A stretch of 64,000 nt of DNA from a virus (IMGVR_UViG_3300025012_000045:36075-100074); one strand, 5' to 3'. Positions 37,001 to 56,011 are shown, counted from the first letter of the stretch. The notes: generated by a model from the sequence alone, not told the origin. Numbers and translations are program-made.

Positions 37001-37036
37001 CTTTTTCTTTTTTCTGACTATTTATATAGAAAAGAG

Positions 37037-39175: not shown

Positions 39176-39188
39176 TTTATATAATGAA

Positions 39189-40673: not shown

Positions 40674-40738
40674 AAAATAATAAGAATTTTTTTAAGTGTT
40701 TTTTCTTTTTCTAACTATTTATATAGAAAAAGAAAATT

Positions 40739-41587
40739 ATGAAAAACACAAAAGAAAAACAACAATGGGAAGAATTAAAAAATATTATACAAGAGAAGAA
40801 AGAAAAGAAGCCAAAAGAAGATGGAATAAAACTTACTATTGGAAAAACAAAGAAAAACTCGATAAACAATCAAGAGAAAGATATTGGAGAAATAAAAAAA
40901 ACAGAAGAAATAACGAAAGATAGATTATACCAAATATATAAAATAGAAAAGAAACAATTGAAAGAGATTGCTAGTTTTTTTAAAGTACCAATTTATACTA
41001 TTAGAAATAGATTAATAAAATATGATATAATACCTAATAAAACCTATACCCATGTCAAGCCAAGAATTGGAGATAAATTTAATAGATGGAAAGTTATAGA
41101 GTATTGTGGTTATGAGGACGGTAATGAATATTGTTTATGTGAATGTGATTGTGGGACCATTAAAAAGGTAGAAATATGGACATTAAAGCATGGAATAACA
41201 AAAAGTTGTGGATGTTATCATGCTGAAATATTAAAAAAAATTAACTGGACGGGGTATAAAGAAATAAGTGGAAAATATTGGGGTTCACTACAATCATCTG
41301 GTAGGCGTAAACGTTTAGAATTTAATATTAATATAAAATATTGTTGGGGGTTATATATAAAACAAGATAGAAAATGTGCTTTAAGTGGATTACCCATAGA
41401 ATTTGAAACATTAAAAAGACGAAAAAAAGATAAATTTATTGCCTCATTAGATAGAATCGACAGTAAAAAAGGATATATTGTTGGTAATGTTCAATGGGTC
41501 GTTAAAGAAATAAATTATATGAAAAGAATATTAACCGATGAAAAGTTTATATTTTTTTGTAAAAAAATAGCTAAAAATAATAAATAA
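40739..41587 (+). CDS. homing endonuclease (CDCG/SCGC HNH-like family)
   Basis: C.CDCG...TKSCGC, CALSG, SLDRIDS.KGY..GNVQWV...N.MK. Confidence 0.8.
   Translation: MKNTKEKQQWEELKNIIQEKKEKKPKEDGIKLTIGKTKKNSINNQEKDIGEIKKTEEITKDRLYQIYKIEKKQLKEIASFFKVPIYTIRNRLIKYDIIPNKTYTHVKPRIGDKFNRWKVIEYCGYEDGNEYCLCECDCGTIKKVEIWTLKHGITKSCGCYHAEILKKINWTGYKEISGKYWGSLQSSGRRKRLEFNINIKYCWGLYIKQDRKCALSGLPIEFETLKRRKKDKFIASLDRIDSKKGYIVGNVQWVVKEINYMKRILTDEKFIFFCKKIAKNNK
40765..40923 (+). CDS. small basic protein overprinted on the endonuclease 5' end
   Basis: MGRIKKYYTREERKEAKRRW...YYWKN...SRERY, homologous to 55093..55242. Confidence 0.7.
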   Translation: MGRIKKYYTREERKEAKRRWNKTYYWKNKEKLDKQSRERYWRNKKNRRNNER

Positions 41588-41605
41588 AATAAAAGTAAAA
41601 TAATT

Positions 41606-42475
41606 ATGAAAAAAAATGTTAAATTAATAATATTCTCAAAGAATAGAGCATTACAATTATTTACTCTATTATCATCACTTGATAAAAACAGTACAATATT
41701 TAAAGATATTTATATTCTTTATAAATTTACAAATGAAGAATATAAACAAGGATATGATAAACTTAAAACTCAAACTTATGAAAATATTGACAAAGATAAA
41801 TCAATATATTTTTATGAAGAAAATGAAGAAGGGTTTAAATCTAACCTAAATGAACTACTTCAATTAAATAGAGAAAAATATGATCATATTTGTTTTATGG
41901 TTGATGACCAGATAATGTACCAGAAACTTGAAAATGAAAATGAAATATTTGACTTAATAACAGATGATGTTTTTTGTTTTTCTTTAAGATTGGGACTAAA
42001 TATTAAATATAGACATTTAACTGATAAATATTTTAATTTACTTAATTATGAGGAATCAGATAATGGAAAATTTATAAAATGGAATTGGAGAGAACAGGGA
42101 CAACAATCAGATTTTGGATATTTTTTTTCTGTTGATTCGCATATTTTTAAATATAAAGATATTGAGAAATTAATTAAACCGTTAAATTATAATAATCCAA
42201 ATACTTTTGAAGCATCAATGCATTTACAATATAATTTTCCAAAGAATTATATGTGTAGTTATAATAATTCAAAAACAGTTAGTTTACCTATTAACAGAGT
42301 GAATGATGTATTTTTAAATAGATTTGGGGTAAAAGTCAATATAACAGAAAAAGAATTAAATGATAGATTTTTAAATGGGGAAATAATTGATTATGAAAAT
42401 ATGCAATATGAAAATATTAATGCATGCCACGTTGAAATCCCTGTTTTATTTAAAAAAGAATTTGAACATGCATAA
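41606..42475 (+). CDS. putative GT-A glycosyltransferase
   Basis: IIFSKNRA.QL..LL.S, FMVDD, FSLRLG, PN.FE. Confidence 0.65.
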   Translation: MKKNVKLIIFSKNRALQLFTLLSSLDKNSTIFKDIYILYKFTNEEYKQGYDKLKTQTYENIDKDKSIYFYEENEEGFKSNLNELLQLNREKYDHICFMVDDQIMYQKLENENEIFDLITDDVFCFSLRLGLNIKYRHLTDKYFNLLNYEESDNGKFIKWNWREQGQQSDFGYFFSVDSHIFKYKDIEKLIKPLNYNNPNTFEASMHLQYNFPKNYMCSYNNSKTVSLPINRVNDVFLNRFGVKVNITEKELNDRFLNGEIIDYENMQYENINACHVEIPVLFKKEFEHA

Positions 42476-42734
42476 TAAAAAAGTTGAAAAATATTGGCAA
42501 GATAATAAAGAAAAAATTTTAACACATTGGTTATTATATAAAAAATATGGTGATAGGGGTTTTTATGTAACATCAGAAAATATTGCTGAAATTGTTGATT
42601 TAATAGCTAACGGAGAAATTCATTTCAATGACTCAAAACTTTTATTAGAAGAATTAGATAAAGAAAGATTAAGAATAGTAAAATTTCATTATGATTGTAT
42701 AGAAAAATTATATCCAAATTTATATAAAAAATAA
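42468..42734 (+). CDS. hypothetical protein
   Basis: likely start MHNKK overlapping previous gene. Confidence 0.5.
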   Translation: MHNKKVEKYWQDNKEKILTHWLLYKKYGDRGFYVTSENIAEIVDLIANGEIHFNDSKLLLEELDKERLRIVKFHYDCIEKLYPNLYKK

Positions 42735-43400
42735 GTGAGTAAAGAATATTATTATACAGAAAAAAGTCAAATTGGTAATTTATCTGAAATATATTTAGAT
42801 TATTTTGGATATAAAACAAATGGTTATTTTGTTGAAGTGGGTGGATATGACGGAACCCAATACAGCAATACATATGGTTTGGCTAAAGTTTGGTGGCACG
42901 GACTTATTTTTGAACCGCAACCTTATATTTTTGATACTTGTGTTAAAAATTATAAAAATTATCCAAATATAAAAATAGAAAAATGTTGTATTGGAAGTTA
43001 TGATGGAAATATTGATTTATATATTGGTGGCCCCTTAACTACCACTAGTAAAGAAATGGTTGAGGTATATAAGACATTAGATTTTTCAAAGGGATTATTC
43101 ATTGGTGATATTTATCCTGTTAAATCTACAATTTATAAATTAGATAATATGTTAGAAAAATATAATTGGCCCATTAGTTTTGATGTCCTTGTTATTGATA
43201 CTGAAGGAACAGAATTAGAAGTTTTAACAGGGTTTTCAATAGATAAATGGTTGCCAAGATTAGTGATAATAGAAATGGATATAAAAAATAAAAATGAATT
43301 TATCAGAATAAAAAGTGAAAAAATAAATGAAATTATGAAAGAAAATAAATATAAAAAAATTCATGAAGATTCAATTAATAGTATATTTGTTTTAAATTAA
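42735..43400 (+). CDS. FkbM-family methyltransferase
   Basis: FVEVGGYDG...SNT...FEP...IDTEG.E..VL.G. Confidence 0.85.
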   Translation: MSKEYYYTEKSQIGNLSEIYLDYFGYKTNGYFVEVGGYDGTQYSNTYGLAKVWWHGLIFEPQPYIFDTCVKNYKNYPNIKIEKCCIGSYDGNIDLYIGGPLTTTSKEMVEVYKTLDFSKGLFIGDIYPVKSTIYKLDNMLEKYNWPISFDVLVIDTEGTELEVLTGFSIDKWLPRLVIIEMDIKNKNEFIRIKSEKINEIMKENKYKKIHEDSINSIFVLN

Positions 43401-43422
43401 AAAATAGATTAATTTATTTAAG

Positions 43423-44280
43423 ATGAAAAGAACACCATTAAAAATTTGTGATTCAGCATTCGCACACACTTTTACAAGTAGTTGGGATAATAAATCAAAA
43501 TATATTGAATGGGTTAGAGATTTTGATAAAAATGCAGATAATGATTTAATATTTTTTACAGATCAAAATATATTTAATTTTTATAACTACCGATCAAAAA
43601 TTAAAATTGGGTGGCTTATTGAGCCTGTCAGCGTAAACCCCTATTCTTATTCTTTTGTTCGAGAAAATTATCAAAAAGAAGGATTCTTCGATTATATATT
43701 AACTTATGATAAAGAATTAATAGAATTAAATAAAAATATTAATAGTGATATTTTCCAGTTTTTTTCTCATGGCGGTTCTTGGATAGAAGAAGAAGATTTT
43801 AAAATTTATGATAAAAATAAAATGGTATCGATAATTGCAAGCGGTAAAAACCAGACTAAAGGGCACCGCCTTAGACATAGCAGTATCGAATATTATAAAC
43901 AAAAACTTGATGTGATGGGTCATGGATACAGAAGTATTGAAAGTAAAAAAGAAGGTTTATGTGATTATAGATATTCTGTTATTATTGAGAATATAAAACA
44001 AAATGATTATTTTACAGAAAAATTAATTGATTGTTTATCAACAGGAACAGTTTCCATATATTGGGGAACTGAAAATATTGGAAATTATTTTGATGAAAGG
44101 GGAATAATTAAATTTGACAATATATCTGAATTGGGGTATATATTAGATAATATTGTATCAGAAAAGGACTATTTATCAAGAATGGATGCAATTAAACATA
44201 ATCTGGAAGAGTGCAAGAAATATAGAATCGCAGAAGATTATATATTTGAAAACTTTTTAGTTAAAAATAATTTAATATGA
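43423..44280 (+). CDS. GT10 (fucosyltransferase-like) glycosyltransferase
   Basis: YRYSVIIEN....YFTEK..D....T..IYWG. Confidence 0.8.
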   Translation: MKRTPLKICDSAFAHTFTSSWDNKSKYIEWVRDFDKNADNDLIFFTDQNIFNFYNYRSKIKIGWLIEPVSVNPYSYSFVRENYQKEGFFDYILTYDKELIELNKNINSDIFQFFSHGGSWIEEEDFKIYDKNKMVSIIASGKNQTKGHRLRHSSIEYYKQKLDVMGHGYRSIESKKEGLCDYRYSVIIENIKQNDYFTEKLIDCLSTGTVSIYWGTENIGNYFDERGIIKFDNISELGYILDNIVSEKDYLSRMDAIKHNLEECKKYRIAEDYIFENFLVKNNLI

Positions 44281-44495
44281 AAAATAAATGTGAACATTGT
44301 AATAGAAATGCAGATTATAAGGTGAGTTCATTTCATTCTACTTATGATTGTTTATTTAAACCAAATCAAAAAGACAGATTACCAACACCCGGTAAGGTTG
44401 AAATGGTAATAGGTTATTGTTGTGGTCATTGTTTGCCAGGGCCAAAAGAACCATATAAAACAGATTATTGTTATGTTTTTGTTGAAAAATTGTAG
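44277..44495 (+). CDS. small Cys-rich protein
   Basis: CEHC...CCGHC. Confidence 0.55.
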   Translation: MKNKCEHCNRNADYKVSSFHSTYDCLFKPNQKDRLPTPGKVEMVIGYCCGHCLPGPKEPYKTDYCYVFVEKL

Positions 44496-44538
44496 TACCT
44501 ATTGACTATTTAAATTATTTTGTTTATTTTTGTATTAT

Positions 44539-45294
44539 ATGAAAGAACATAAAAGTTTTGAAGAATATGTTACTAGATTTAGAGAATTGGCAGGTCTTAA
44601 ACCTGATGATAACCCAATTGATTTTTTACCAAAACAAATTCCTGCTGAAGAATATTTAACAGAAGATAAAATAAAAGAGTTAAATGAAAGTAGTTTAACT
44701 AGAATACGACAACATATATTAAATCACGATATTACAACAATAAGTGCATGGAGAGATAAAAATGAAAATTGTGTAGAATATAGAGAAGGTGCAGAGAGAA
44801 ATAAAATTTTTACAAGAGAAGAAAAAAATGAAAGGAATTTGGAATTAAGTTCTGCATTATTGAAAAAGAGATATGGTGTTACATATATTAGAGGAATATC
44901 ACAAGAAGGAAAACAGATAGTTCAGGAAAATAGTTATCTCGTTGTTAATTTAAATAATGATGAAAAATTTATTGATAATGTAAAGAAATTGGGGCAATAT
45001 TATTGTCAGGATTCTGTACTAATAAAAGAAAAAAATAATGAAAATGCATATTTAATTGGAACAAATAATTTTCATAGATTGGGACTTAATAAAAAACAAA
45101 TATTAGGTAAATTTCATCCAGGAATAGAAAATGAACTCATGTCAAAAATACATGGAAGGCCATTTTATTTTGGTGAGAATGTAGATAGAGAGGGGCCAAT
45201 ACAATTTGAAATATATGATGAATTTAGTATTGGTGCAAGACAAGCAGTTACAAAAACATCAGAAAAAATTTTAAATGAAATATTTAAAAAATGA
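44539..45294 (+). CDS. leader-bearing DUF3293-like protein, paralog of 46838
   Basis: FEEYVTRFRELAG...LNE/SSLTRI; ISAWR, ENS.LVVN, QDSVL. Confidence 0.7.
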   Translation: MKEHKSFEEYVTRFRELAGLKPDDNPIDFLPKQIPAEEYLTEDKIKELNESSLTRIRQHILNHDITTISAWRDKNENCVEYREGAERNKIFTREEKNERNLELSSALLKKRYGVTYIRGISQEGKQIVQENSYLVVNLNNDEKFIDNVKKLGQYYCQDSVLIKEKNNENAYLIGTNNFHRLGLNKKQILGKFHPGIENELMSKIHGRPFYFGENVDREGPIQFEIYDEFSIGARQAVTKTSEKILNEIFKK

Positions 45295-45590
45295 AGAAAT
45301 ATAAAAGTTTTGAAGAATATGTTATTGATACTTTAAAATTGATAATTCCAATAACTACTGGATTTAAATCAAGTCAAATATCATATGTGTTTGATGGTAA
45401 GGTTAATTATTTTACATATTATAAAAATACTAATAAATTATGGATTAATTACAGAGAAATATATTGTGGATTTGTAGATGATCTTGGAATTTTTAGTATA
45501 GAGATATTTAGAAAAATAATAAGAAATAAAATAAAGGAATATTTAAAATTAAATAACAAAGTAAAAGTTTTAAGAAACTCAAATTTTTAA
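45291..45590 (+). CDS. hypothetical protein
   Basis: begins KSFEEYV like 44539. Confidence 0.55.
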   Translation: MKKYKSFEEYVIDTLKLIIPITTGFKSSQISYVFDGKVNYFTYYKNTNKLWINYREIYCGFVDDLGIFSIEIFRKIIRNKIKEYLKLNNKVKVLRNSNF

Positions 45591-45599
45591 TAAATAAAA

Positions 45600-46820
45600 A
45601 TGAATAAATTTAAAACATTAAATGAAGAAATAGACAGAATAAAAGAATTATCTGGAATTGAGAAAAAAGAATCAACTCAATTAATTGATGAATCTGGATT
45701 TGCCAGAATAAATAGAATGTTATGGGGGGGAGTCCCATCAATTAATTCTGTTGGAATATTAACAGCAGAAAATCCCCAAGGGCAACAGTTATCTCCAGAA
45801 GAAAATAATAAAAGAATGAAAGATTTAAAAACTACTTTGGGGACTTATGGGTTTATTGATGTTAAGGGAAAATTTAGGACTAAAGAAGGTAATAATTTAA
45901 TTGAAAATTCTCTTATTATTCCTAATTTACCCAAAGAAACATTATTCTGGTTACAAAAAAAATTTGAACAAGAATCTGTTATTTATGGGAAAAGAAAAGA
46001 TAAAAATACATTTTTATTTGAATATATTAAAAACGGTAATACTGAAGATAAACAAGAGGTTATTTTATCAAAGATGGAAGGTAATGAAGAATATTATTCG
46101 TATTTACCAAAAACCAGTAAAAAAGATGGAGAAAAAATAAAATATGAAAGAAGTTTCAGAATACCATTTTTTGATAAAATTGGTTATAGAAAATCCACTA
46201 ATCAAGGAACGTGGGAAATAACTGAACATTATGGATTTTTAGATATGAATTTAGAAGATTTACCAAAAGACAATAAAGAAATAAATTTATTATTAAATGA
46301 AATTAAAAAAAATGAGAAAGAATTATTGATAGAAGGATTAATTTCAAAATATTATTGGGTAAGGAGAGGTATAATAAATGAATCTATTAAGATAATAAAA
46401 GAAATTTTGGATCAACTTGAAAATGGATTTATTAATATTGATATTGATAATTTACCAAAAGGTAATGAGGAAGTATTAATATTATTAAAAAATATAAGAG
46501 AAAATAAAAAAAGATTGATTGTAAATGATTCATTATCCAATGATTATATTGGAAAAAAACATGAAATAAATGAATCAATCAGAAGATTAAAAGAACTTAT
46601 AAAAGAAAATAAGATATTTAAATTAACAGAAGAACAATTGGAAGAAATAACAAAAGACCAGGAAATATATAATTATTTTTTGATAAATGATAAACCGTTT
46701 ATCCATGCAACTGCCGAACAACATTATAATCAATCAAAAGAAAAAAGTTTGGAATTATTCAATCACATACCAAAAAATTTTAAACAATTTTGTTTTGAAG
46801 AATATGAACGTAATAAATAA
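45600..46820 (+). CDS. leader-bearing DUF3293-like protein, paralog of 39189
   Basis: LNEEIDRIKELSG leader; core nearly identical to 39189. Confidence 0.75.
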   Translation: MNKFKTLNEEIDRIKELSGIEKKESTQLIDESGFARINRMLWGGVPSINSVGILTAENPQGQQLSPEENNKRMKDLKTTLGTYGFIDVKGKFRTKEGNNLIENSLIIPNLPKETLFWLQKKFEQESVIYGKRKDKNTFLFEYIKNGNTEDKQEVILSKMEGNEEYYSYLPKTSKKDGEKIKYERSFRIPFFDKIGYRKSTNQGTWEITEHYGFLDMNLEDLPKDNKEINLLLNEIKKNEKELLIEGLISKYYWVRRGIINESIKIIKEILDQLENGFINIDIDNLPKGNEEVLILLKNIRENKKRLIVNDSLSNDYIGKKHEINESIRRLKELIKENKIFKLTEEQLEEITKDQEIYNYFLINDKPFIHATAEQHYNQSKEKSLELFNHIPKNFKQFCFEEYERNK

Positions 46821-46837
46821 TATGAAATTTTAAAAAA

Positions 46838-47524
46838 ATGAATAAATACAAAACATTAAATGAAGAAATAAATAGAATAAGAGAATTATCTGGATTAGAT
46901 ACAACTATTGAAGAAAGTTCACTTAGCAGAATATTTGAACATTTATCAAAACACGATATTGCCATGATGACAGCATTTAGAAAAGAAAATATAGACTGTC
47001 TTGATGAAGAAAAAAATACAAAAGGAATTATTACAAAAGAAGATAATTTAGTAAGAAATAAAAAATTACAAGTATCATTATTATCTTTAGATTATAGTGT
47101 TACTGCAATAGATGGTTCTGTAATAAAAAATTTTGGTAAAGAAAATGAAAGGGAATTTAAAGAAAATAGTTTTTTAGTTGTTAATTTATATGATGATGAA
47201 AAATTTATTAATAACATAATAAAACTTGGACAATATTTTTGTCAGGACAATGTTTTAATAAAAGAAAAGGAAAAAGAAAATGCTTATTTAATTGGAACTA
47301 ACAATTCAAACGGTCCAGGATTAAATCAAAGATATGATTTGGGAAAATATAAACCAGGAATAGAATCACAATTTATGTCAAAAATAAAAGGAAGACCGTT
47401 TTATTTTGAACAATATGATAATTTTAATATTGGGGCCAAACTTATAATAACTAATGAATCTAAAGAGATTTTAGAAGAGATAGAAAAATATAATATTAAT
47501 GATATAAAATTAAAAAAATTATGA
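46838..47524 (+). CDS. leader-bearing DUF3293-like protein, paralog of 44539
   Basis: LNEEINRIRELSG...IEE/SSLSRI. Confidence 0.7.
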   Translation: MNKYKTLNEEINRIRELSGLDTTIEESSLSRIFEHLSKHDIAMMTAFRKENIDCLDEEKNTKGIITKEDNLVRNKKLQVSLLSLDYSVTAIDGSVIKNFGKENEREFKENSFLVVNLYDDEKFINNIIKLGQYFCQDNVLIKEKEKENAYLIGTNNSNGPGLNQRYDLGKYKPGIESQFMSKIKGRPFYFEQYDNFNIGAKLIITNESKEILEEIEKYNINDIKLKKL

Positions 47525-47967
47525 AAAATAAAAAAATAGATGTTATTGAATTAACTGAATATCAACCTTCAGAATTTAATCCAAAACTCAAAGATTTTGA
47601 GATATTTGGAAAACACGGACTAATGAACGGAAGAATGCTTTCTGGGTCAAAATCAGGTTATCATGATAAGTACCCAGATCATTTAGTTATTTTTAATGCA
47701 AACATTGTTACAAAATCAAAGGGAAAAGTGATTTATGGTGATATTGATATTAATAAAGATATTGATACACTTAAAAAAATATCAGAAGAATTGGGAGAAC
47801 ATTTATATGTTTTATATGAAATGGATTGCAGGTTTGATACAGAGAAAGATGATATTAAAGAATTAATTAAAAATGCACTATGGTCAACAGATCCAGATTT
47901 TAAACCAAGTAGATTGGGTGAATATTGGACTTTTGATAAAAATGGAAAACCAAAAAGAAAAAAATAA
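47521..47967 (+). CDS. hypothetical protein
   Basis: GRM.SGSKS.Y...P...V.FNAN...GD.D...LYVL.E.D.RF. Confidence 0.7.
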   Translation: MKNKKIDVIELTEYQPSEFNPKLKDFEIFGKHGLMNGRMLSGSKSGYHDKYPDHLVIFNANIVTKSKGKVIYGDIDINKDIDTLKKISEELGEHLYVLYEMDCRFDTEKDDIKELIKNALWSTDPDFKPSRLGEYWTFDKNGKPKRKK

Positions 47968-47972
47968 ATATT

Positions 47973-48176
47973 ATGAAAATACAGACAAAAATAATGGTAA
48001 GAGATGTTGGGCATCCAGATTATGAAATTCAATTGGAATTGGATTTCTTATATGTACCCCCACAACAAATTAGTAAAAGAGTAACATTCAATCTTGAAGG
48101 TAAAGAATTTGCATTTTATAATATGGAAGATGTTTTTACCATTCATGGTATTACAAGATATGTATATTTTAGATGA
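47973..48176 (+). CDS. hypothetical protein
   Basis: ORF in operon. Confidence 0.55.
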   Translation: MKIQTKIMVRDVGHPDYEIQLELDFLYVPPQQISKRVTFNLEGKEFAFYNMEDVFTIHGITRYVYFR

Positions 48177-48229
48177 TAAATTGTATGAGATGGTTGAGAA
48201 TATTTAAGTTTTTAAATTAAATTTATCAG

Positions 48230-48547: not shown

Positions 48548-48567
48548 AATTATTAAAACCAAAACAA

Positions 48568-48870
48568 ATGTATCAAATAGTTGAAACTACGCATCAGCAG
48601 AAAATGACAATGTACATGAAATGTACAAAGAAAAAATTAGCAGAAATGTTGATTGCATGCAATGATGCATTAGATTTCCAAAATAAAAATAAAGAATTTC
48701 CAAATGAGCAATCCTATAAAACATTATCTGGATCATGTCATTGTTGCCCAGTATGTGATGGAAAAGGAATAGTTCCAAATGGATTTTATGCATCAGTATG
48801 TGGTTTTGGTACAACAACCTCAACTATCCCTGAAACATGCAGAAGTTGTAGTGGAAATGGATTTATTTAG
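48568..48870 (+). CDS. DnaJ-type zinc-finger protein
   Basis: CPVCDGKG and CRSCSGNG. Confidence 0.7.
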   Translation: MYQIVETTHQQKMTMYMKCTKKKLAEMLIACNDALDFQNKNKEFPNEQSYKTLSGSCHCCPVCDGKGIVPNGFYASVCGFGTTTSTIPETCRSCSGNGFI

Positions 48871-48879
48871 GAATAAAAA

Positions 48880-49410
48880 ATGTTAAATAGAAAAATAATT
48901 TCAAGTAAAAAAGATTGGGGAACACCGTTAAAGTATGTCAATGCGGTTAAAGAAGTTTTTGACAATATAATAGAGTTGGACCCATGTTCCAATGAATATA
49001 GTATTGTTAATGCAAAAAAAGAAATACAACCACCAGAAAATGGTTTAGCTATTGATTGGGATTATAAAACAATATATGTTAATCCTCCGTATGGTAGAGA
49101 TAAAAATGTAAAGACAAATATTTCAGATTGGTTAAAAAAGTGTTCCGATAGTTATGAAAAATATAATAATGAGATATTGGCATTAATACCTGTATCAACA
49201 AATACAAAACATTGGAAAGAAAATATATTTAAAAGAGCAAATGGGATTTGTTTTTTAGAAGATACAAGATTGAAATTTTTAAATAAAGGAATAGAAGAAA
49301 AGAAAGGGGCACCGATATCATGTACAATGATTTATTGGGGGAATAATTATAATAAGTTTAAAGAGGTTTTTAGTAAATATGGGAAATGTTTTAAAATAAT
49401 ATTAAAATAA
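48880..49410 (+). CDS. phage Dam-type DNA N6-adenine methyltransferase
   Basis: W.TP, LDPC, NGL..DW, NPPY, LIP..T.T..W, R..F. Confidence 0.85.
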   Translation: MLNRKIISSKKDWGTPLKYVNAVKEVFDNIIELDPCSNEYSIVNAKKEIQPPENGLAIDWDYKTIYVNPPYGRDKNVKTNISDWLKKCSDSYEKYNNEILALIPVSTNTKHWKENIFKRANGICFLEDTRLKFLNKGIEEKKGAPISCTMIYWGNNYNKFKEVFSKYGKCFKIILK

Positions 49411-49418
49411 TATTAAAA

Positions 49419-50297
49419 ATGTATCATTGTTGTACTCTTTCAGATTATAATTATCTTTTAAAGGGATTGGTTTTATATGATTCTTTAGAAAAATATACTA
49501 AAGAAGATTTTGTTTTATATTATTTTTGTCTTGATAATGAAACATATAATAAATTAAACGAATTAAATTTAAAACATATTATTCCAATAAATTTAAAAGA
49601 TTTAGAATATGATCATTTAGAATTACAAAACATTAAAAAACAAATAACATACCAAAATTATTGTTTTACTCTTTCTTCTTATTTTTGTTGGTATTTGTTA
49701 GAACATTGTATGTTACAAGATATATTATATATTGATAGTGACATAGTTTTTTATGATAGCTTAAAAAAGATATTTGATACTGTTAAGGATAAAAGTATAG
49801 GACTGATACGTCATCGTCATGTTTCCTATGGGCATTATGTGGGGTACTATAATGTAGGTATTATTTATTTTGATAATAAAGAAGGATTAAAATGCTGTGA
49901 ATTTTGGAAAGATTTAATGTTGAACCCCAACAATGAGTATTCAAAAGAATACGGAACTTGTGGGGACCAGAAATATTTGGAATTATTTGAAAAAAAATTT
50001 GATGGAGTTAAGATTATTGATGAAAATGGGATAGGATATTTTGCGCCATACAATCTAGATTTATATTCGTATGAAAATTTTTCAATAAATGATAAAAAAA
50101 TTATTTGGAATGGAAAAGAAGAAAAAATAATATTCAATCATTTTATTAAATTTAAACCAGATTTTGAAAATGATACCTATGTTCCAGTTGAAACATTGCA
50201 AGAATGGAATAAATTATCTAAAATTAAAGAGGTTGTTGAAATTTATAATGAATATTTTGAATTAAATAAAGAAATAAAAAATAGATGGTTGAACTGA
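49419..50297 (+). CDS. GT-A (GT8-like) glycosyltransferase
   Basis: NYL..GL.L..SL, YIDSD, YNVG, GDQKYL. Confidence 0.75.
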   Translation: MYHCCTLSDYNYLLKGLVLYDSLEKYTKEDFVLYYFCLDNETYNKLNELNLKHIIPINLKDLEYDHLELQNIKKQITYQNYCFTLSSYFCWYLLEHCMLQDILYIDSDIVFYDSLKKIFDTVKDKSIGLIRHRHVSYGHYVGYYNVGIIYFDNKEGLKCCEFWKDLMLNPNNEYSKEYGTCGDQKYLELFEKKFDGVKIIDENGIGYFAPYNLDLYSYENFSINDKKIIWNGKEEKIIFNHFIKFKPDFENDTYVPVETLQEWNKLSKIKEVVEIYNEYFELNKEIKNRWLN

Positions 50298-51016
50298 ATA
50301 AAATATATCATGGAGATTGCCTTGATATTATGAAAAATATTCCAGATGATTATATAGATTTAATCACTGTAGATCCGCCATGGGGAGTCAATTTTTGCCA
50401 ATCCAGATTTTATAATGATGATAAACAAAATATTCTTAATATGCAAGAAATATGGCTAAAAGAAATGTATAGAGTTTTAAAAGATAATTGTCATTTATAT
50501 TTATTTACTCCAACTTTGGAAATTGATTCATGGGTATATAATATTAAAAAAATATTTAATTTTAAAAACGTGATTGCATCACAAGTTTTTGTAAACAACA
50601 GATACAATAAAGATAATTTCGGATGGGACCTGCAATTAATATTATATGCATCTAAAAATAAACCCAAAAGATTTAATCAGGTAGATTGGATACCTGCCAG
50701 TGATTCGTGGATTAAAGATAAAAGAAATATTAGTCCAAAGAAATGGACATATAAATATCCATCTTTTATTTCAAATAAAATAATAAGGTCAAATTATAAA
50801 AACGGTTCTGTTAGAAAAAGACAACATCCGAATGAAAAAAATCATGAATTAATTGAAAAATTTATTTTAATGAGTTCAAATAAAGGAGATATTGTTTTAG
50901 ATCCATTTGCTGGATGTTTTTCAACTTGTCTTGCTGCCAAAAATACAGGAAGAAATTATATTGGAATTGAATTAAATAAGGAATATTGTGAAATTGGAGA
51001 AAAAAGATTAAAATGA
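50285..51016 (+). CDS. N4/N6 DNA methyltransferase (beta class)
   Basis: GDCL, DPPW, HP.EK, VLDPFAG, GRNYIGIEL. Confidence 0.9.
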   Translation: MVELNKIYHGDCLDIMKNIPDDYIDLITVDPPWGVNFCQSRFYNDDKQNILNMQEIWLKEMYRVLKDNCHLYLFTPTLEIDSWVYNIKKIFNFKNVIASQVFVNNRYNKDNFGWDLQLILYASKNKPKRFNQVDWIPASDSWIKDKRNISPKKWTYKYPSFISNKIIRSNYKNGSVRKRQHPNEKNHELIEKFILMSSNKGDIVLDPFAGCFSTCLAAKNTGRNYIGIELNKEYCEIGEKRLK

Positions 51017-51022
51017 AACAAA

Positions 51023-51668
51023 ATTTGATTGAAAAAATTGAACGACAATTACTAACTATCTGGTGGGAAGTGGGTAGTAAAACTCACCAGTGCATCGTAG
51101 AGCGGATCATCTTTGAGCGGTTCAGAATAGATGGATGGGACATGGATATAGAAGTAAATTTAAATTAAAAATCAATAAAAATGAAAACAATAACAGGTGA
51201 TTTAATAAAGCAAGCAAACGAGTTTGATATAATTGTTCATGGCTGCAATTGTTTTTGCACGATGGGTGCCGGTATTGCCAAACAAATTAAAGATAATTTT
51301 AATGAAGCACACTTGGTTGATATTCAAACTCAATATGGGGATAAAAACAAATTAGGAACAATAACTTATACAAAAAATACTAAACCGATAATTGTTAACG
51401 CATATTCCCAATATAAATATACAAGAGATGAGGTGGATGTTGATTATGAAGCAATAAGAAGCTGTATGAAAGAAATTAAAAATAAATTTAGTGGAAAGAA
51501 AATAGGTATGCCATTAATTGGGTGCGGTTTGGCCGGTGGGGCCTGGTCAATTATTAGTGAGATTATAGAAGAAGAATTAGAAAATGAAGATATAACAATT
51601 GTTAAATGGGATAAAAATACTAAGATTTGATTGAAAAAATTAAAATACAATTACCAATTATTTGGTGG
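51023..51668 (+). repeat. 44-nt imperfect direct repeat (51023-51066, 51625-51668) flanking macrodomain gene
   Basis: ATTTGATTGAAAAAATT.AA..ACAATTAC.AA.TAT.TGGTGG twice. Confidence 0.75.
51181..51630 (+). CDS. macrodomain (ADP-ribose binding/hydrolase)
   Basis: GDL, HGCNC..MGAGIA, P.IGCGLAGG.W. Confidence 0.9.
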   Translation: MKTITGDLIKQANEFDIIVHGCNCFCTMGAGIAKQIKDNFNEAHLVDIQTQYGDKNKLGTITYTKNTKPIIVNAYSQYKYTRDEVDVDYEAIRSCMKEIKNKFSGKKIGMPLIGCGLAGGAWSIISEIIEEELENEDITIVKWDKNTKI

Positions 51669-51804
51669 AAAACAGATAGCAATATATATGGCATTAAAAT
51701 AAAAGATTCATCAGGAAAAATACATTATTTTAACAAAGATGGTACTTATGATGGTTGGTCAAGAGATGTGAATATTAATGAGAATTAAATTATAAAATAT
51801 AAAA

Positions 51805-52626
51805 ATGAAAATATTAAAAAGTGAATATATGTCCTGGGGGAATGATCCAGATCTTGGAGAGAAACTTATTGGCCATGGGTTAATTAAGAATAAACATTTA
51901 CTATTTGAAGATTACTCTTACGTGTTCATTGCTCTTTCTCCCTTAATTAATAACCAAGGAATTTTTAAGACACAACAAATAATTGATGATATTTGTAAAG
52001 AAAATAACAATACAAAATTAATATTTGTTTGTCAGCATATATTTGTTGATAAAATAAACTGGCATAATAATATCGTATTTTCAACACATGTAATAAAAGA
52101 TAATAAAAATATTATTCCAATACCGCATTATAGTGCAACATATAATAAAGCATTAATAAAAGAAGAAAGAGATATATTATTTAGTTTTGTGGGTCATTCT
52201 GGAACACATCCAATAAGAGAATATTTTGTTAAAAAATATCCAGACAAATGTTTTTCAACAGAAGGAGAATGGATGAGTAAAAAATATAAGAATAAATATA
52301 TAGAATTGTTAGGAAAAAGTAAATTTAGTTTATGTATCCGTGGGACCGGTCCAAGTAGTCTCAGAATTTATGAAAGTTTATATATGGGGAGTGTACCTAT
52401 TATTATTTCAGACGATTTAGTATTACCTTTGAGTAATATATTTAATTGGGATAGGGTTTCTGTTAGAATTAATGAAAATGAAATTGATAATTTGGAAGAT
52501 ATTTTATTTACATATTCAGATGAAGAAGTGAAAGAAATGTCAAAATTGGGTCAAAATTTTTGGGAAGAATATTGTTCTGACGTAAACTTGTATAAAACAA
52601 TTATTGAAATTTTAAAGAATAAATAA
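51805..52626 (+). CDS. exostosin/GT47-like glycosyltransferase
   Basis: FSFVG...HPIR, S.FSLC.RG.G.SS.R.YE....G.VPIIISD...LP. Confidence 0.85.
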   Translation: MKILKSEYMSWGNDPDLGEKLIGHGLIKNKHLLFEDYSYVFIALSPLINNQGIFKTQQIIDDICKENNNTKLIFVCQHIFVDKINWHNNIVFSTHVIKDNKNIIPIPHYSATYNKALIKEERDILFSFVGHSGTHPIREYFVKKYPDKCFSTEGEWMSKKYKNKYIELLGKSKFSLCIRGTGPSSLRIYESLYMGSVPIIISDDLVLPLSNIFNWDRVSVRINENEIDNLEDILFTYSDEEVKEMSKLGQNFWEEYCSDVNLYKTIIEILKNK

Positions 52627-52830
52627 TGAATAAAAAAGAAATAAATTGGAATAAAATATTAACTCCTTTGGTTATTGACAAATTGACAATAGTTAGGAAC
52701 ACAATGAGATGGGAAGAATATAATATTGCCAGAGAGGTAACTAATAATTGGATGAAATTTATTAAAAGAAATTTTAAACCAAAAAATAAATAATTACTAA
52801 GGGGGGATTGATTATTTAGATTATTTTATT

Positions 52831-52838
52831 TATCTTTG
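52831..52838 (+). promoter_or_regulatory. Bacteroidota-type -7 element
   Basis: TATCTTTG with TTG about 23 nt upstream, before 52892. Confidence 0.55.
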
Positions 52839-52891
52839 TGATTAATTAACTGAATTATTAACTATTTAAAAAATAAAAATATGAAAAAACA

Positions 52892-53740
52892 ATGAAAACA
52901 ACAGCATTTAAATCAGAATATACTGGAGAGTTATTTGAAACAAAAAAGGAATATAATCTTCATATAAAAAAGTATAAAATACAAAAAAAAGAAGCAGAGA
53001 AGCAAAATTTATTTATTTTAAAATCAAAAGAAATGAGACAAATGCCACGCTTAACCGCAGTTTCAATAGAAGATTTTAGAGAAAAAGCATTTAATATTAT
53101 AAACGTATTAAACGACAATAATCCAGATAAATTTTTAGGATTATTTATTGAGGCTAGGAATTTTGGTTGGGTAAGCGATACTCATTCTGCACCAATTGGT
53201 GGGGAACAAAATTTTTCACAAAATGATGATAAACCAAAAGGATATAATGGTTGGAATGGGCGAATAACTTTTATTCTTTCAGAAGAAAAAAATACAGGAG
53301 AAAATAGAAATAAAATTGAAAATCTTATACAAAGGTTTCCAGGAATAAATATTGGCTGTGGCGGATATGGAGGAAATGAATATGACGGAATAAAGGGATA
53401 TGTTCTTTCTTATGAACTCAGATTATATCTTGACGATTTTCCTATATTAAAATCAAAATATAAAAAATATTTGAAATTACAAGATAATTATCAGCAATGG
53501 AATGAAAAAGTTAATAAGTTGTTTGAAGAAAAAAATAATTCTGATGAGGAAATGATTTCATATAAAAATGTAGAATCTGAATTATCTGACCAATTTCATA
53601 AAATAGAAAATAAATTAAATAATATTAGTAAATCAATAAATTTACGGCAACAAACAAATAACCAGCAAATTTTATCTGATAATCCTTTTGCTGAACTCGG
53701 AGATCTGGAAGACCTAGAAATTAAATTAAAAATTAAATAA
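52892..53740 (+). CDS. hypothetical phage protein
   Basis: VS.THSAP..G..N...GY.GW.G. Confidence 0.7.
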   Translation: MKTTAFKSEYTGELFETKKEYNLHIKKYKIQKKEAEKQNLFILKSKEMRQMPRLTAVSIEDFREKAFNIINVLNDNNPDKFLGLFIEARNFGWVSDTHSAPIGGEQNFSQNDDKPKGYNGWNGRITFILSEEKNTGENRNKIENLIQRFPGINIGCGGYGGNEYDGIKGYVLSYELRLYLDDFPILKSKYKKYLKLQDNYQQWNEKVNKLFEEKNNSDEEMISYKNVESELSDQFHKIENKLNNISKSINLRQQTNNQQILSDNPFAELGDLEDLEIKLKIK

Positions 53741-53741
53741 A

Positions 53742-54050
53742 ATGAAACTAAATTTAATCAGTACCAAAGAAATTTTGGAATTAGAAAAAGAAATCGGATA
53801 TGAATTAGAAGTGAATGAACGCCCAACACATTCGGGATTGAGTCGATACTATGTAAGTTTCAAAGAAGGTGAAAGTATGGAAGGTGGTTGTTTGGTGGGG
53901 TATTCTGGAAACGGAAATACCATTGATGAGGCATTACAAGATTATTGTAAAAAAATTAGTTGCCGAAGAATGGCATTTGGTGCTTGTACAAATAGCCGAA
54001 AAGAAATTTTATTTCCAAAATTGGTTCATACAAAATTGCTCAGTCAATAA
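53742..54050 (+). CDS. hypothetical protein
   Basis: GNG.T.DEAL.DY. Confidence 0.65.
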   Translation: MKLNLISTKEILELEKEIGYELEVNERPTHSGLSRYYVSFKEGESMEGGCLVGYSGNGNTIDEALQDYCKKISCRRMAFGACTNSRKEILFPKLVHTKLLSQ

Positions 54051-54082
54051 TTGTGTGGTTGGGCTTGTTGTAATACAAAAAT

Positions 54083-54949
54083 ATGAAAAAAAATAAAAAA
54101 CAATCTTTATTTTACAATGACATGATTTCCATAATGAAAAAAATATTAAAGGATTTATATGAAAATACAGAATATTGGGGGAAATCAGAATATGGAGTTG
54201 AGGGAATAATTAAACCAATAACAAATCAAGATAATGAAGAATGGTCAAATTATAATTTTATAAATACAAATACTTCAACAATATGGAAAGTTATTGACCC
54301 ACATATGAAAGAATTATATGAAACTGGAAATTATAAGATAAATGGATGTTTGAATTTTCCTATTCCAAACAATAATAAAGGAATTGAAGAATTTAATGAA
54401 GATGAATATAATCCAAATAAGTATTGGTTTGAATTTATGTGGGAAATGAGAGAAGAATTATATGGATTAAATAGTAAAATAAAAGATGATATTATTTCAA
54501 CAATTAATATAACAAGAGGAAAGGGAAATAGATTGGAAAATTATCTTGTTAAATCATTAAATGATTCTGAAATTACAAATGATGCAGAAATATCGGGTGG
54601 TGCAGGAAACCCATCAGATTTTAAAGGAATTGATGTTACTTTTACTTTAAACGGACAAAGAAAAGAAGCACAAGTAAAATCTCTTATTGATATAAGTGAA
54701 ATTGAAAATGATTATTTGATTAAATCATTAATGTTAGATAAAATATATCCACAAGATATATTGATATTATCAAAAGAAATTGAACAAAATGAAATATATG
54801 AATTTTATATATTTAATAATCCAAAAGATGATATTAAAAACTTGGGAAATAACCAATATATGATTGATAAAACATATTTGTTATATGGGTTGAGATATGA
54901 TAATGGAAAAGTTCAACATAAAAAAATAAATAATTTAATATTAAATTAA
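54083..54949 (+). CDS. putative PD-(D/E)XK nuclease-fold protein
   Basis: G...E...D.KGID......AQVK. Confidence 0.5.
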   Translation: MKKNKKQSLFYNDMISIMKKILKDLYENTEYWGKSEYGVEGIIKPITNQDNEEWSNYNFINTNTSTIWKVIDPHMKELYETGNYKINGCLNFPIPNNNKGIEEFNEDEYNPNKYWFEFMWEMREELYGLNSKIKDDIISTINITRGKGNRLENYLVKSLNDSEITNDAEISGGAGNPSDFKGIDVTFTLNGQRKEAQVKSLIDISEIENDYLIKSLMLDKIYPQDILILSKEIEQNEIYEFYIFNNPKDDIKNLGNNQYMIDKTYLLYGLRYDNGKVQHKKINNLILN

Positions 54950-55066
54950 ATGAATAACTTGAAAAAACAATTAACCAGTAAAAATTTATCAAAGATATTT
55001 GATAAGTATTTGAACTTTTTTTAAACTTTTTTAATTTATCGACTATTTATATAGAAACGATAAATT

Positions 55067-56011
55067 ATGAAAGAAACAAATATTAAACAACAATGGGAAG
55101 AAAAAGAAAATACTTTACAGAAGAAGAACAACTCACAGCAAAGCGAGAAAGACAAATGCGGCATTATTGGAGAAATCAAAAACGACTTCAAAAAGAATCC
55201 AGAGAACGGTATTATAGAAAGAAAAAAGAAGATTTGCACTAAATGTAGAATTGAAAAATTATTATCAGAATTTAATAAACATTCTAGTACAAAAGATAAA
55301 CGGCAATCGCAATGCAAAAGTTGTACAAAGAAAAGTAGTAAAAATTGGAGAAAAAATAATCCTGATAAGGTAAAAGAAAATTATAAGAATCGGAAAGAAA
55401 ATGATCCAGAATATAATAAAAAATATTATTACAAAAATAAAGAAAAAGAAGTTAAAAGATCTTTAAAATGGCATAAAAATAATCCTGAAAAATCAAGAGA
55501 AAAAAGTAAAAAATGGCAAAATAATAATCCTGATAAGGTAAAAGAAATAAAAAAAAATTGGAGAAAAAATAACCCTGACAAGGTAAAAGAAGATAATAAG
55601 AATTGGAAAGAAAATAATAAAGATGCTATTTTAAAATATAATAATAATTATTTTAAACAGAGAAGAAAAACCGATCCATTATTTAAATTAAGTGGAAATA
55701 TAAGAACTATGTTACATAAGTGTTTAAAATTAACTAATACAAAAAAAGAAAATCATACATTTGAAATATTAGGATATACCCCTGAAAAATTAAAACTAAG
55801 ACTGGAAATGAATTTTACAGATAAAATGAATTGGGACAACTATGGAACATATTGGGAGATTGATCATAAATTACCAATTGATTATTTAATAAAAAAAGGA
55901 ATAACCGACCCAAAAATAATAAATGCTTTATTAAATTTGCAACCATTAACTTGTGAAAAAAATAGATCCAAAAAAAATAATTATGAAAAAAAATATAAAA
56001 CAATTAAATAG
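55067..56011 (+). CDS. HNH homing endonuclease with NNPDKVKE repeats
   Basis: CTKC..CKSC, NWDNYG.YWEIDH..P...NLQPL. Confidence 0.85.
   Translation: MKETNIKQQWEEKENTLQKKNNSQQSEKDKCGIIGEIKNDFKKNPENGIIERKKKICTKCRIEKLLSEFNKHSSTKDKRQSQCKSCTKKSSKNWRKNNPDKVKENYKNRKENDPEYNKKYYYKNKEKEVKRSLKWHKNNPEKSREKSKKWQNNNPDKVKEIKKNWRKNNPDKVKEDNKNWKENNKDAILKYNNNYFKQRRKTDPLFKLSGNIRTMLHKCLKLTNTKKENHTFEILGYTPEKLKLRLEMNFTDKMNWDNYGTYWEIDHKLPIDYLIKKGITDPKIINALLNLQPLTCEKNRSKKNNYEKKYKTIK
55093..55242 (+). CDS. small basic protein overprinted on the endonuclease 5' end (not in ORF track)
   Basis: MGRKRKYFTEEEQLTAKRERQMRHYWRNQKRLQKESRERYY, homologous to 40765..40923. Confidence 0.7.
   Translation: MGRKRKYFTEEEQLTAKRERQMRHYWRNQKRLQKESRERYYRKKKEDLH

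What the first reader, a model, noticed from the sequence alone, without database searches (positions are those of the whole stretch)
40716..55242. Dual-frame promoter/leader cassette fused to two unrelated homing endonucleases
Seen: at 40716 and 55044 the layout is identical. CTATTTATATAGAAA is followed by ATG1 23 nt after the TATTTATA start (40739, 55067), then AAACAACA-ATG2-GGAAGAA exactly 26 nt later (40765, 55093). ATG2 opens a conserved basic peptide of about 50 aa (MGR.[KR]KY.T.EE...AKR......YW.N...L.K.SRERY). ATG1 opens the nuclease frame, which stays stop-free through the same ~150 nt with poorly conserved sequence. The two nucleases belong to different families (CDCG/SCGC type vs NPDKVKE-HNH), and neither has another ATG before its nuclease domains. 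Inference: a mobile expression module in which an overprinted peptide (repressor or inhibitor) and competing starts, or a +1 frameshift, limit nuclease output. The HNH at 37037 has the same 15-mer but no nested ORF.
Basis: partly seen in the sequence, partly recalled or inferred. Interest (0 to 1): 0.72.

Follow-up and report, generated by a model that had tools for sequence, protein, structure and literature searches.

The report
Portable small-gene leader for phage nucleases
Two unrelated homing-nuclease genes in this jumbo phage share a promoter plus a conserved gene for a 50-residue basic protein, read in a second frame. That unnamed leader sits in front of many different nuclease and methylase genes in uncultured phages, so it looks like a reusable expression and landing module.

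Summary
At 40715 and 55043 the same 15-mer is followed by ATG1 (nuclease frame) and, 26 nt later, by ATG2, which opens a 52/49-aa basic ORF nested in the nuclease ORF.

The small ORF belongs to a large unnamed protein family: 752 clusters, no Pfam domain, no solved relative, and no hit in deposited phage genomes or cellular genomes. It is the frame under purifying selection (pN/pS 0.42, against 0.89 for the nuclease frame).

In 110 distinct relatives from viral contigs it is always a stand-alone 45-75 aa ORF. In 89 of them a long gene overlaps its 3' part in the +1 frame. These genes are GIY-YIG, HNH and zinc-finger nucleases, DNA methylases, or a DnaB helicase.

The shared module is discrete, about -50 to +120 around ATG2. 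Payloads are swapped just after codon 40.

Most relatives start the payload at a +1-frame ATG inside the small ORF. Only the window's two copies, L023 and L107 start it upstream and nest the small ORF fully.

In the window's lineage the promoter lies in the loop of a hairpin that reaches ATG1, as in T4 homing-endonuclease control.

A +1 frameshift fusion is not supported. The function of the small protein is untested; a DNA-binding regulator is my inference.

The parts
37018..37032 (+). Copy 1 of the 15-mer promoter-like motif, in front of an HNH gene that has no small ORF
   Evidence: Exact match. Alignment of the three sites.
37037..37750 (+). HNH-type endonuclease gene (237 aa, P0003). It shares only the promoter with the other two sites.
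   Evidence: phrog_1035, 1.1e-07. C-terminal DH...N...N motif read from the translation.
40688..40899 (+). Shared leader module, copy W1. It runs from -77 to +135 relative to ATG2 and holds a T-rich tract, the promoter motif, ATG1, and small-ORF codons 1-45.
   Evidence: blastn blocks W1/W2 71% and W1/L023 71%, with no similarity beyond them.
40696..40749 (+). Inverted repeat predicted to form a hairpin. The TATTTATA motif is in the loop and ATG1 lies in an internal loop of the 3' arm.
   Evidence: MFE -13.6 kcal/mol, z -2.6, 1 of 200 shuffles as good.
40715..40729 (+). 15-mer promoter-like motif (TATTTATA core, the phage's general promoter type)
   Evidence: 59 TATTTATA sites in the genome, 21 of them within 60 nt upstream of an ORF start against 9 of 59 for the reverse motif; many are preceded by a T-run.
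40739..41587 (+). Nuclease ORF from ATG1 (282 aa, P0001). Residues 1-57 are overprinted on the small ORF, followed by an HTH-like segment, CxC/CDCG cysteines and an HNH-like core.
   Evidence: phrog_3322 4.2e-19, phrog_374 1.7e-16. No other start codon.
40765..40923 (+). Small ORF from ATG2 (52 aa plus stop), MGR-family basic protein, nested in the nuclease ORF. The nuclease frame is +1 relative to it.
   Evidence: AF2 predicts an N-terminal arm plus one long helix, pLDDT 93.
55017..55227 (+). Shared leader module, copy W2 (-76 to +135 relative to ATG2)
   Evidence: blastn blocks W2/L023 79% over -82..+133 and W1/W2 71%.
55026..55073 (+). Inverted repeat predicted to form a hairpin (arms AATTTATCG / CGATAAATT). 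The promoter motif is in the loop and ATG1 lies in the stem.
   Evidence: MFE -14.5 kcal/mol, z -4.6, 0 of 200 shuffles as good. The same hairpin occurs in L023 with a G-U change.
55043..55057 (+). 15-mer promoter-like motif
55067..56011 (+). Nuclease ORF from ATG1 (314 aa, P0002). Residues 1-56 are overprinted on the small ORF, followed by a CxxC...CxxC zinc finger, NPDKVKE repeats and a C-terminal HNH.
   Evidence: phrog_1035 6.1e-16, phrog_28061 7.7e-11.
55093..55242 (+). Small ORF from ATG2 (49 aa plus stop), MGR-family basic protein
57553..58140 (-). Fourth nuclease (195 aa, P0154). It is of the CDCG type, like P0001 and the L023 payload, but has no leader module. It shows that the natural N-terminus of this nuclease type is short.
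   Evidence: 73% nt identity to the L023 payload.

Best explanation
The two sites are copies of a portable leader module for free-standing homing-endonuclease genes.

The module, about 210 bp here, consists of:
- the phage's own promoter type (a T-run plus TATTTATA);
- a gene for a roughly 50-aa basic protein that starts MGR and is predicted to be an N-terminal basic arm plus one long helix;
- a start codon for whatever payload is joined just after codon 40 of the small gene, always in the +1 frame.

Shown:
- The small protein is a separate, selected product and is widespread in uncultured phages.
- Different nucleases and methylases are exchanged behind it at a fixed junction.
- In most relatives the payload starts at a +1-frame ATG inside the small ORF.

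In the window's lineage the payload start has moved upstream. ATG1 lies 26 nt before ATG2, so the small ORF is completely nested and the nuclease carries an unconserved N-terminal extension of about 55 aa.

Inferred:
- The two starts compete, and ribosomes translating one frame run over the other start. This keeps nuclease output low and ties it to the small protein.
- The promoter sits in the loop of a hairpin whose 3' arm holds ATG1. Read-through transcripts from upstream would therefore hide ATG1 but leave ATG2 free, while transcripts from the cassette's own promoter would expose ATG1. This is the logic known for T4 I-TevI, segB and mobE.
- The small protein most likely binds DNA as a regulator of its own cassette.
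- The conserved first 40 codons also serve as the homology arm or landing pad for exchange of payloads.
For: - Layout and chance.
- Family: 80 + 80 viral loci; 195 representative clusters, nearly all 44-110 aa with the match at residues 1-46; 752 clusters, all unnamed.
- Frame rule: 46 of 55 and 43 of 55 distinct small ORFs are followed by a long ORF of at least 100 codons in +1; 9 are in +2 and 12 are truncated or other.
- Payload families: GIY-YIG, HNH and Zn-finger nucleases, DPPY methylase, DnaB helicase.
- Own start codons: 84 of 89 have a +1 ATG inside the small ORF, commonest at +97, +121 and +169. W1, W2 and L023 have the ATG at -26 and L107 at -5. The fifth exception, L159, has its first +1 ATG 34 nt beyond the small ORF's stop.
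- Selection: pN/pS is 0.42 in the small-ORF frame, against 0.89 and 1.04 in the other two frames. G and R of MGR use many synonymous codons.
- Module edges: L031 vs L067 are 97.7% identical only over -50..+120. Loci with the same flanks break at +121-124. The conservation profile agrees.
- Hairpin: z -2.6 (W1), -4.6 to -5.2 (W2), -2.0 to -2.4 (L023). Relatives without ATG1 have none.
- Promoter class.
- T4 precedent for overlap and promoter-in-hairpin control: PMC2988022.
Against: - No expression data of any kind. No RNA run holds the stretch, and the read-laying run failed.
- Use of ATG1, the position of the transcription start and the hairpin's effect are all predictions.
- The hairpin arms are a T-tract and an A-rich leader, which pair easily. 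At 37018 the z-score is only -0.6.
- The preference for +1 is partly compositional. The +2 frame of this K/E/N/Y-rich ORF is almost always closed, so any long overlap must be in +1.
- In one phage lineage the small ORF is an ordinary operon gene between an exonuclease and a DnaB helicase, with no nuclease payload. It is therefore not exclusively a nuclease leader.
- DNA binding by the small protein rests only on its composition, its predicted shape and the nearby repeats.
Confidence: 0.6

Rival explanations
1. The small ORF is simply a conserved resident phage gene, and the stretch just after its codon 40 is a hot spot where free-standing nucleases and methylases insert. On this reading the overlap and shared frame follow from insertion geometry and codon composition, and have no regulatory meaning.
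For: - Class-2 loci have the small ORF as an operon gene between an exonuclease and DnaB, with or without an inserted methylase.
- Loci with the same flanks carry different nucleases.
- Class-1 small ORFs (45-55 aa) are shorter than class-2 ones (59-62 aa), as if their tails had been replaced.
- The +2 frame is closed by composition.
- T4 nucleases also overlap whatever gene lies upstream.
Against: - The module occurs 2-3 times per genome, each copy with its own promoter. L052 carries three tandem units.
- L031 and L067 share only the 171-bp module, at 97.7% identity, in unrelated surroundings. The module therefore moves by itself.
- The payload start codon is usually supplied from inside the module, and the nuclease frame is kept open across the whole small ORF in the window's lineage.
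- This rival overlaps with the best explanation, which also uses the landing-pad role.
Confidence: 0.25
2. Translation starts at ATG2, and a programmed +1 ribosomal frameshift, or loss of one A by transcriptional slippage at the A-run near the end of the small ORF, fuses the basic N-terminal domain to the nuclease.
For: - The payload is in +1 in 89 of 110 relatives.
- W1 has an A8 run and W2 an A6 run just before the nuclease domains.
- W1, W2 and L023 have no ATG in the nuclease frame inside the small ORF.
- A rare in-frame fusion to an MT-A70 methylase fragment exists (P0074).
- A YYxKNKE-like motif recurs inside the P0002 repeats (weak).
Against: - No shift motif is conserved among the loci, and L023 has no long A-run.
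- 84 of 89 relatives have a +1-frame ATG inside the small ORF, soon after the last +1 stop. A frameshift would not need one.
- W1, W2 and L023 keep an in-frame ATG1 in the genome's usual start context and keep the frame open across the small ORF (P = 0.17 and 0.023 by chance). A frameshift would not need that either.
- Among 195 representative clusters almost none are fused in frame to a payload.
- GIY-YIG domains normally sit at the very N-terminus.
Confidence: 0.07
3. The small ORF is a cis-acting leader peptide (uORF) whose translation alone, not its product, controls the payload.
For: Its position at the 5' end of the transcript and its overlap with the payload start. uORF control is common.
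Against: - The amino-acid sequence is conserved over its first 40 residues in hundreds of clusters, with saturated synonymous change.
- It also occurs as a normal operon gene.
- It is predicted with high confidence to fold as a long helix.
- Conservation is strongest at the N-terminus, not near the stop codon as in arrest peptides.
Confidence: 0.08

Closest known systems
Free-standing homing endonuclease genes of T4-like phages (seg and mob genes; I-TevI, segB, Aeh1 mobE), as reviewed in PMC2988022
   Same: - Nuclease genes overlap the upstream ORF by 11-24 bp, which is thought to limit translation.
- A late promoter sits immediately upstream, inside a hairpin that hides the start site on read-through transcripts.
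- The window's W1, W2 and L023 copies show both features by prediction.
   Different: - In T4 the upstream ORF is whatever phage gene lies there. Here it is one dedicated, conserved small gene that travels with the promoter as a discrete module and is shared by unrelated payloads.
- Overlaps run from 11 nt to complete nesting.
- This genome has no Shine-Dalgarno sites to sequester.
C (controller) protein operons of type II restriction-modification systems, e.g. PvuII (PMC2997769)
   Same: - A small regulator gene lies directly upstream of the nuclease gene and overlaps its start.
- There are repeats upstream of the promoter. Most relatives have a tandem direct repeat whose two copies change together.
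- The logic is delayed or limited expression of a toxic nuclease.
   Different: - C proteins are helix-turn-helix proteins. This protein is predicted to be one long helix with a basic arm, with no Pfam match.
- The window's own copies lack the direct repeats.
- Binding is untested.
- In PvuII the overlap itself had no measurable effect.
Overprinted and nested phage genes, such as the MS2 lysis gene in the +1 frame over coat/replicase and Rz1 inside Rz (from general knowledge, not tested here)
   Same: Two proteins are read from one stretch in different frames. One frame is conserved as protein, and the other is constrained mainly to stay open.
   Different: Here the overlapped segment is a mobile 5' module combined with many different payloads, and the extent of overlap varies between relatives.
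Integron platform: Pc promoter with a short leader ORF that helps translate cassettes lacking their own initiation region (from general knowledge, not tested here)
   Same: A fixed promoter plus short ORF platform supplies expression signals to interchangeable downstream genes that are joined at a fixed point.
   Different: There is no integrase or attachment site. Exchange here is probably by homologous recombination or homing. The leader here encodes a conserved protein.

Membership tests
HNH (beta-beta-alpha-metal) homing endonucleases: the two payloads | Profile match to HNH / endonuclease VII-type families | tested here: met
   P0001 hits phrog_3322 at 4.2e-19 and phrog_374 at 1.7e-16. 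P0002 hits phrog_1035 at 6.1e-16. Pfam HNH models gave no hit at E <= 0.1.
HNH (beta-beta-alpha-metal) homing endonucleases: the two payloads | Catalytic His / Asn motif | tested here: inconclusive
   Read by eye from the translations. P0002 has a C-terminal DH...N...N pattern. P0001 has a DRID..KGY..GNV..V...N pattern. No structure or alignment to a solved enzyme was made.
T4-type promoter-in-hairpin control of homing endonucleases | Phage promoter immediately upstream of the nuclease start | tested here: met
   TATTTATA preceded by a T-run is the recurrent upstream motif of this genome, and it lies 15 nt before ATG1. The transcription start has not been mapped.
T4-type promoter-in-hairpin control of homing endonucleases | Hairpin that includes the start region and can form only on transcripts from further upstream | tested here: met
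   Predicted for W2 (z -4.6, 0 of 200 shuffles), W1 (z -2.6) and L023 (z -2.4); weak at 37018 (z -0.6). This is prediction only.
T4-type promoter-in-hairpin control of homing endonucleases | Sequestration of a Shine-Dalgarno site | tested here: not met
   Genes of this genome have no Shine-Dalgarno sequence. Only the start codon region is enclosed.
Programmed +1 frameshift or transcriptional slippage gene | Conserved shift-prone site at the frame junction | tested here: not met
   The tails of the small ORFs differ between loci. The A-run is present in W1 and W2 only.
Programmed +1 frameshift or transcriptional slippage gene | Downstream frame lacks its own start codon | tested here: not met
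   84 of 89 have a +1 ATG inside the small ORF. Four of the remaining five (W1, W2, L023, L107) have one just upstream of ATG2. The fifth, L159, has its first +1 ATG 34 nt beyond the small ORF's stop.
C-protein-controlled nuclease operon | Small gene upstream of the nuclease gene and overlapping its start | tested here: met
C-protein-controlled nuclease operon | Helix-turn-helix regulator | tested here: not met
   No Pfam family matched. AF2 predicts a single helix over residues 10-51.
C-protein-controlled nuclease operon | Operator repeats upstream of the promoter, bound by the small protein | tested here: inconclusive
   Tandem direct repeats are present in 30 of 38 class-1 relatives but not in W1, W2 or L023. 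Binding cannot be tested with these tools.
Cis-acting leader peptide (uORF) | Peptide sequence free to vary, or conserved only near the stall site | tested here: not met
   pN/pS is 0.42 over codons 1-40. M1, G2 and R3 are invariant; Y7, T9, A16, Y25, N28 and Y40 are at least 90% conserved.
AT-hook DNA-binding motif | R-G-R-P core | tested here: not met
   The window copies have MGRI and MGRK. There is no Pfam AT_hook hit. Some distant relatives have GRPRKY, and an Atlas neighbour cluster carries AT_hook in 14% of its members at score 0.88, which is a lead only.

The most novel reading that the evidence does not exclude
The MGR protein is a dedicated trans-acting controller that travels with homing-endonuclease and methylase payloads. 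It would bind the co-varying repeats at its own promoter and set the timing or level of the toxic payload. Its conserved first 40 codons would double as the landing pad through which unrelated payloads are exchanged. That would make it a previously undescribed, widespread 'controller plus docking' module for selfish nuclease genes in phages.
Probability: 0.3. Interest if true: 0.75.

Novelty: new variant of a known kind. Interest (0 to 1): 0.62.

Why it matters
Free-standing homing endonucleases are toxic selfish genes. How they are expressed safely, and how they spread between sites, is known in detail only for T4.

Here one unnamed small gene with its promoter is found in front of many unrelated nuclease and methylase genes, always in the same overlapping frame, with a sharp exchange junction. 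If it is a regulator and docking site, three things follow:
- It explains how different nucleases replace one another at the same locus.
- It gives a sequence marker for finding new mobile nucleases in metagenomes.
- It gives a compact two-frame expression device that can be tested with simple reporters.

It also shows that gene callers will misjudge the starts of these nucleases and often miss either the small ORF or the N-terminal extension.

Tried and rejected
- tblastn of three small ORFs against 50,697 deposited phage genomes found no match or only E about 0.3.
- A scan of 185,579 species genomes found no relative.
- Pfam gave no hit, and PHROGs gave only phrog_17714 at E 0.042. A profile search of solved structures gave nothing below E 0.5.
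- No structural fold search was run, because a single helix gives meaningless matches.
- Profile comparison with the P0002 repeats gave a 21-residue match at E 0.008 with probability 5%, too weak to use.
- Homodimer prediction gave no verdict.
- Sequencing runs: no RNA holder is listed, and all holders are groundwater DNA runs.
- A search for relatives of the flanking genes 41606-42475 and 54083-54949, meant to find cassette-free alleles, found none.
- A pattern scan for the ATG1-type leader in viral contigs found only the L023 contig.
- A eukaryotic-virus, leaky-scanning reading was considered because of the 24% G+C and the many glycosyltransferases. It was dropped because the genome encodes class II RNR, a DnaB-like helicase, a FEN-type exonuclease and an OmpA-domain protein, and because relatives have operon-style overlapping genes.
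- Homopolymer sequencing error as the cause of the frame offset was rejected because the same offset is present in 89 independent relatives.

Full report
**What is in the window.** The window is the right-hand 64 kb of a 100-kb viral contig. CheckV estimates it at 30% complete, so the phage is probably a jumbo phage. The contig comes from groundwater metagenomes and has 24% G+C. It encodes a class II ribonucleotide reductase, a DnaB-like helicase, a FEN-type exonuclease, an OmpA-domain protein, many glycosyltransferases and at least six homing-endonuclease-like genes. Its genes have no Shine-Dalgarno sequences. A motif made of a T-run, about 13 nt, then TATTTATA recurs in front of many genes, with the ATG 4-30 nt downstream, so it looks like the phage's own promoter type.

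The 15-mer CTATTTATATAGAAA is present exactly at 37018, 40715 and 55043. At the second and third sites ATG1 follows 23 nt after the start of TATTTATA, and ATG2 follows exactly 26 nt later. ATG1 opens nuclease ORFs of 282 and 314 aa. ATG2 opens ORFs of 52 and 49 aa that are 49% identical. Both nucleases hit phage HNH / endonuclease VII-type families but have different architectures. Neither has another plausible start before its domains.

**The small ORF is a real and widespread protein.**
- A profile of the two peptides finds 195 clusters among 1.8 billion representative proteins. Nearly all are 44-110 aa, with the match at residues 1-46.
- A wider profile finds 752 clusters at 90% identity. 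All are unnamed or 'hypothetical', without Pfam domains, and come from marine, freshwater and other metagenomes.
- There is no match in 50,697 deposited phage genomes or in 185,579 species genomes.
- M1, G2 and R3 are invariant. Y7, T9, A16, Y25, N28 and Y40 are nearly so.
- Over codons 1-40 of 53 distinct relatives, pN/pS is 0.42 in the small-ORF frame with saturated synonymous change. It is 0.89 and 1.04 in the other two frames. The same holds for the trio W1, W2 and L023.
- The ATG1-frame extension is therefore not conserved as protein; only its openness is.
- AlphaFold predicts a basic N-terminal arm and one long helix over residues 10-51, pLDDT 93.

**The frame rule.** Two independent scans of viral contigs gave 160 loci and 110 distinct small ORFs.
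- In every case the MGR codon is the first in-frame ATG, and the ORF is 45-75 aa.
- In 89 cases a long ORF overlaps its 3' part in the +1 frame. In 9 cases a long ORF abuts it in +2. Twelve cases are truncated or unclear.
- The payloads are several kinds of GIY-YIG nuclease, HNH nucleases, zinc-finger nucleases, DPPY DNA methylases and, in one phage lineage, the DnaB helicase of the replication operon.
- 84 of the 89 have a +1-frame ATG inside the small ORF soon after the last +1 stop. The commonest positions are +97 (inside the codons for EDEK), +121 (inside YYE or YHE) and +169 (inside LYGE). Others lie at +19, +31, +55 and +64.
- W1, W2 and L023 lack such an ATG and have it at -26. L107 has it at -5. 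L159 also lacks one; its first +1 ATG lies 34 nt beyond the small ORF's stop.
- The window's fully nested layout is therefore the extreme of a continuum.
- Part of the +1 preference is compositional, because the +2 frame of this K/E/N/Y-rich ORF is almost always closed.
- Even so, the nuclease frame is open across the whole small ORF in only 17% and 2.3% of synonymous randomisations for W1 and W2, and in 9 of 55 relatives. ATG1 sits in the genome's usual AAATTATG context. Both points argue that ATG1 is used.

**The module is discrete and portable.**
- L031 and L067 are 97.7% identical from -50 to +120 relative to the small-ORF start and are unalignable on both sides. Their flanks and nucleases differ.
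- W2/L023 and W1/W2 share -82..+133 and -77..+135.
- Loci with the same flanking genes but different nucleases lose similarity at +121-124 and regain it about 1 kb downstream.
- The position-wise profile of 35 loci rises from background at about -40, peaks within +1..+120 and returns to background by +150.
- The module therefore comprises the promoter region plus the first 40 codons. The tail of the small protein is set by whichever payload is joined.
- Modules occur one to three times per genome. L052 has three tandem units, set among glycosyltransferase genes as in the window.

**Two regulatory features.**
- Direct repeats. In 30 of 38 relatives with their own promoter there is a tandem direct repeat at -53..-39, spaced 11-14 nt. 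Its unit differs between loci, but its two copies agree within a locus, which looks like an operator. The window copies lack it.
- Hairpin. W1, W2 and L023 instead have an inverted repeat around the promoter motif. The predicted hairpin has the motif in its loop and ATG1 in its 3' arm (z -2.6, -4.6 and -2.4). The arms differ between W1 and W2 but remain complementary. Relatives without ATG1 show no such structure.
- This matches the T4 arrangement, in which a late promoter inside a hairpin frees the endonuclease start only on its own transcripts (PMC2988022). On read-through transcripts ATG2, 26 nt further on, would remain free.

**Mechanism and rivals.** My reading is a two-frame leader. One transcript region yields a small basic protein and a nuclease from competing starts, so nuclease output is limited and coupled. 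The same conserved segment serves as the recombination arm for payload exchange.
- A +1 frameshift fusion is unlikely. There is no conserved shift site, own start codons are nearly universal, and in-frame fusions are nearly absent.
- A pure insertion hot spot next to a resident gene explains the class-2 operon loci. It does not explain the independent movement of the 171-bp module or the start codons supplied from within it.
- A cis-only leader peptide is contradicted by the protein-level conservation.
- What the small protein does is not shown. DNA binding as an autoregulator is inference from its charge, its shape, the neighbouring repeats and the analogy with C proteins of restriction systems (PMC2997769).

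**Limits.** There are no expression data. The dimer prediction gave no verdict. All loci come from one viral-contig collection searched with peptide patterns, so distant branches of the family are under-sampled.

Noticed in passing
window 30933-32834: A 633-aa ORF has a LAGLIDADG_3 hit in its middle (residues 270-323). Its N-terminus gives thymidylate-synthase/RNR-like PHROG hits and its C-terminus a glycosyltransferase-like hit. It looks like an intein or a nuclease insertion in a host gene.
   Followed up: no
window 57553-58140 (minus strand): A fourth nuclease of the CDCG type, 73% identical in DNA to the L023 payload. It starts directly at the nuclease core, with no leader module.
   Followed up: partly
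window 4395-5939, 14317-15546, 29226-30467: Further mobile genes: a homing endonuclease (phrog_12131), a transposase (phrog_506) and an HNH+HTH protein (phrog_20162). This stretch of the phage is unusually rich in selfish genes.
   Followed up: no
window 39156-40403 and 45600-46820: Two paralogous proteins of about 410 aa with DUF3293 / SAM-lyase-like domains flank the first cassette region.
   Followed up: no
whole genome G000 (e.g. window 4311, 6420, 14242, 17186, 27978, 59466): A general promoter-like consensus, consisting of a run of 6-7 T, about 13 nt, then (G/T)A TATTTATA (T/A)A. The ATG often lies only 4-7 nt downstream, which suggests leaderless or near-leaderless mRNAs.
   Followed up: partly
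L050 and L066 (class-2 loci): In one phage lineage the small ORF (59-62 aa, ending LYGE) is an operon gene: SSB, UvsX-like recombinase, exonuclease, small ORF, (methylase), DnaB helicase, RNR. It overlaps both neighbours. The methylase, where present, uses the same embedded ATG as the helicase does elsewhere.
   Followed up: partly
L052:1437-5690: Three tandem units of small ORF plus nuclease within 4.3 kb, interleaved with glycosyltransferase genes. Two payloads are in +1 and one in +2.
   Followed up: partly
proteins P0004, P0079, P0110, P0113, P0144: The same motif ((G/P)R.(R/K)KY.T.EE...A.R.....YY.RN) occurs at the N-terminus, or repeated, in longer proteins that look eukaryotic, some with a true GRPRKY AT-hook-like core. 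The motif is therefore not confined to phages.
   Followed up: no
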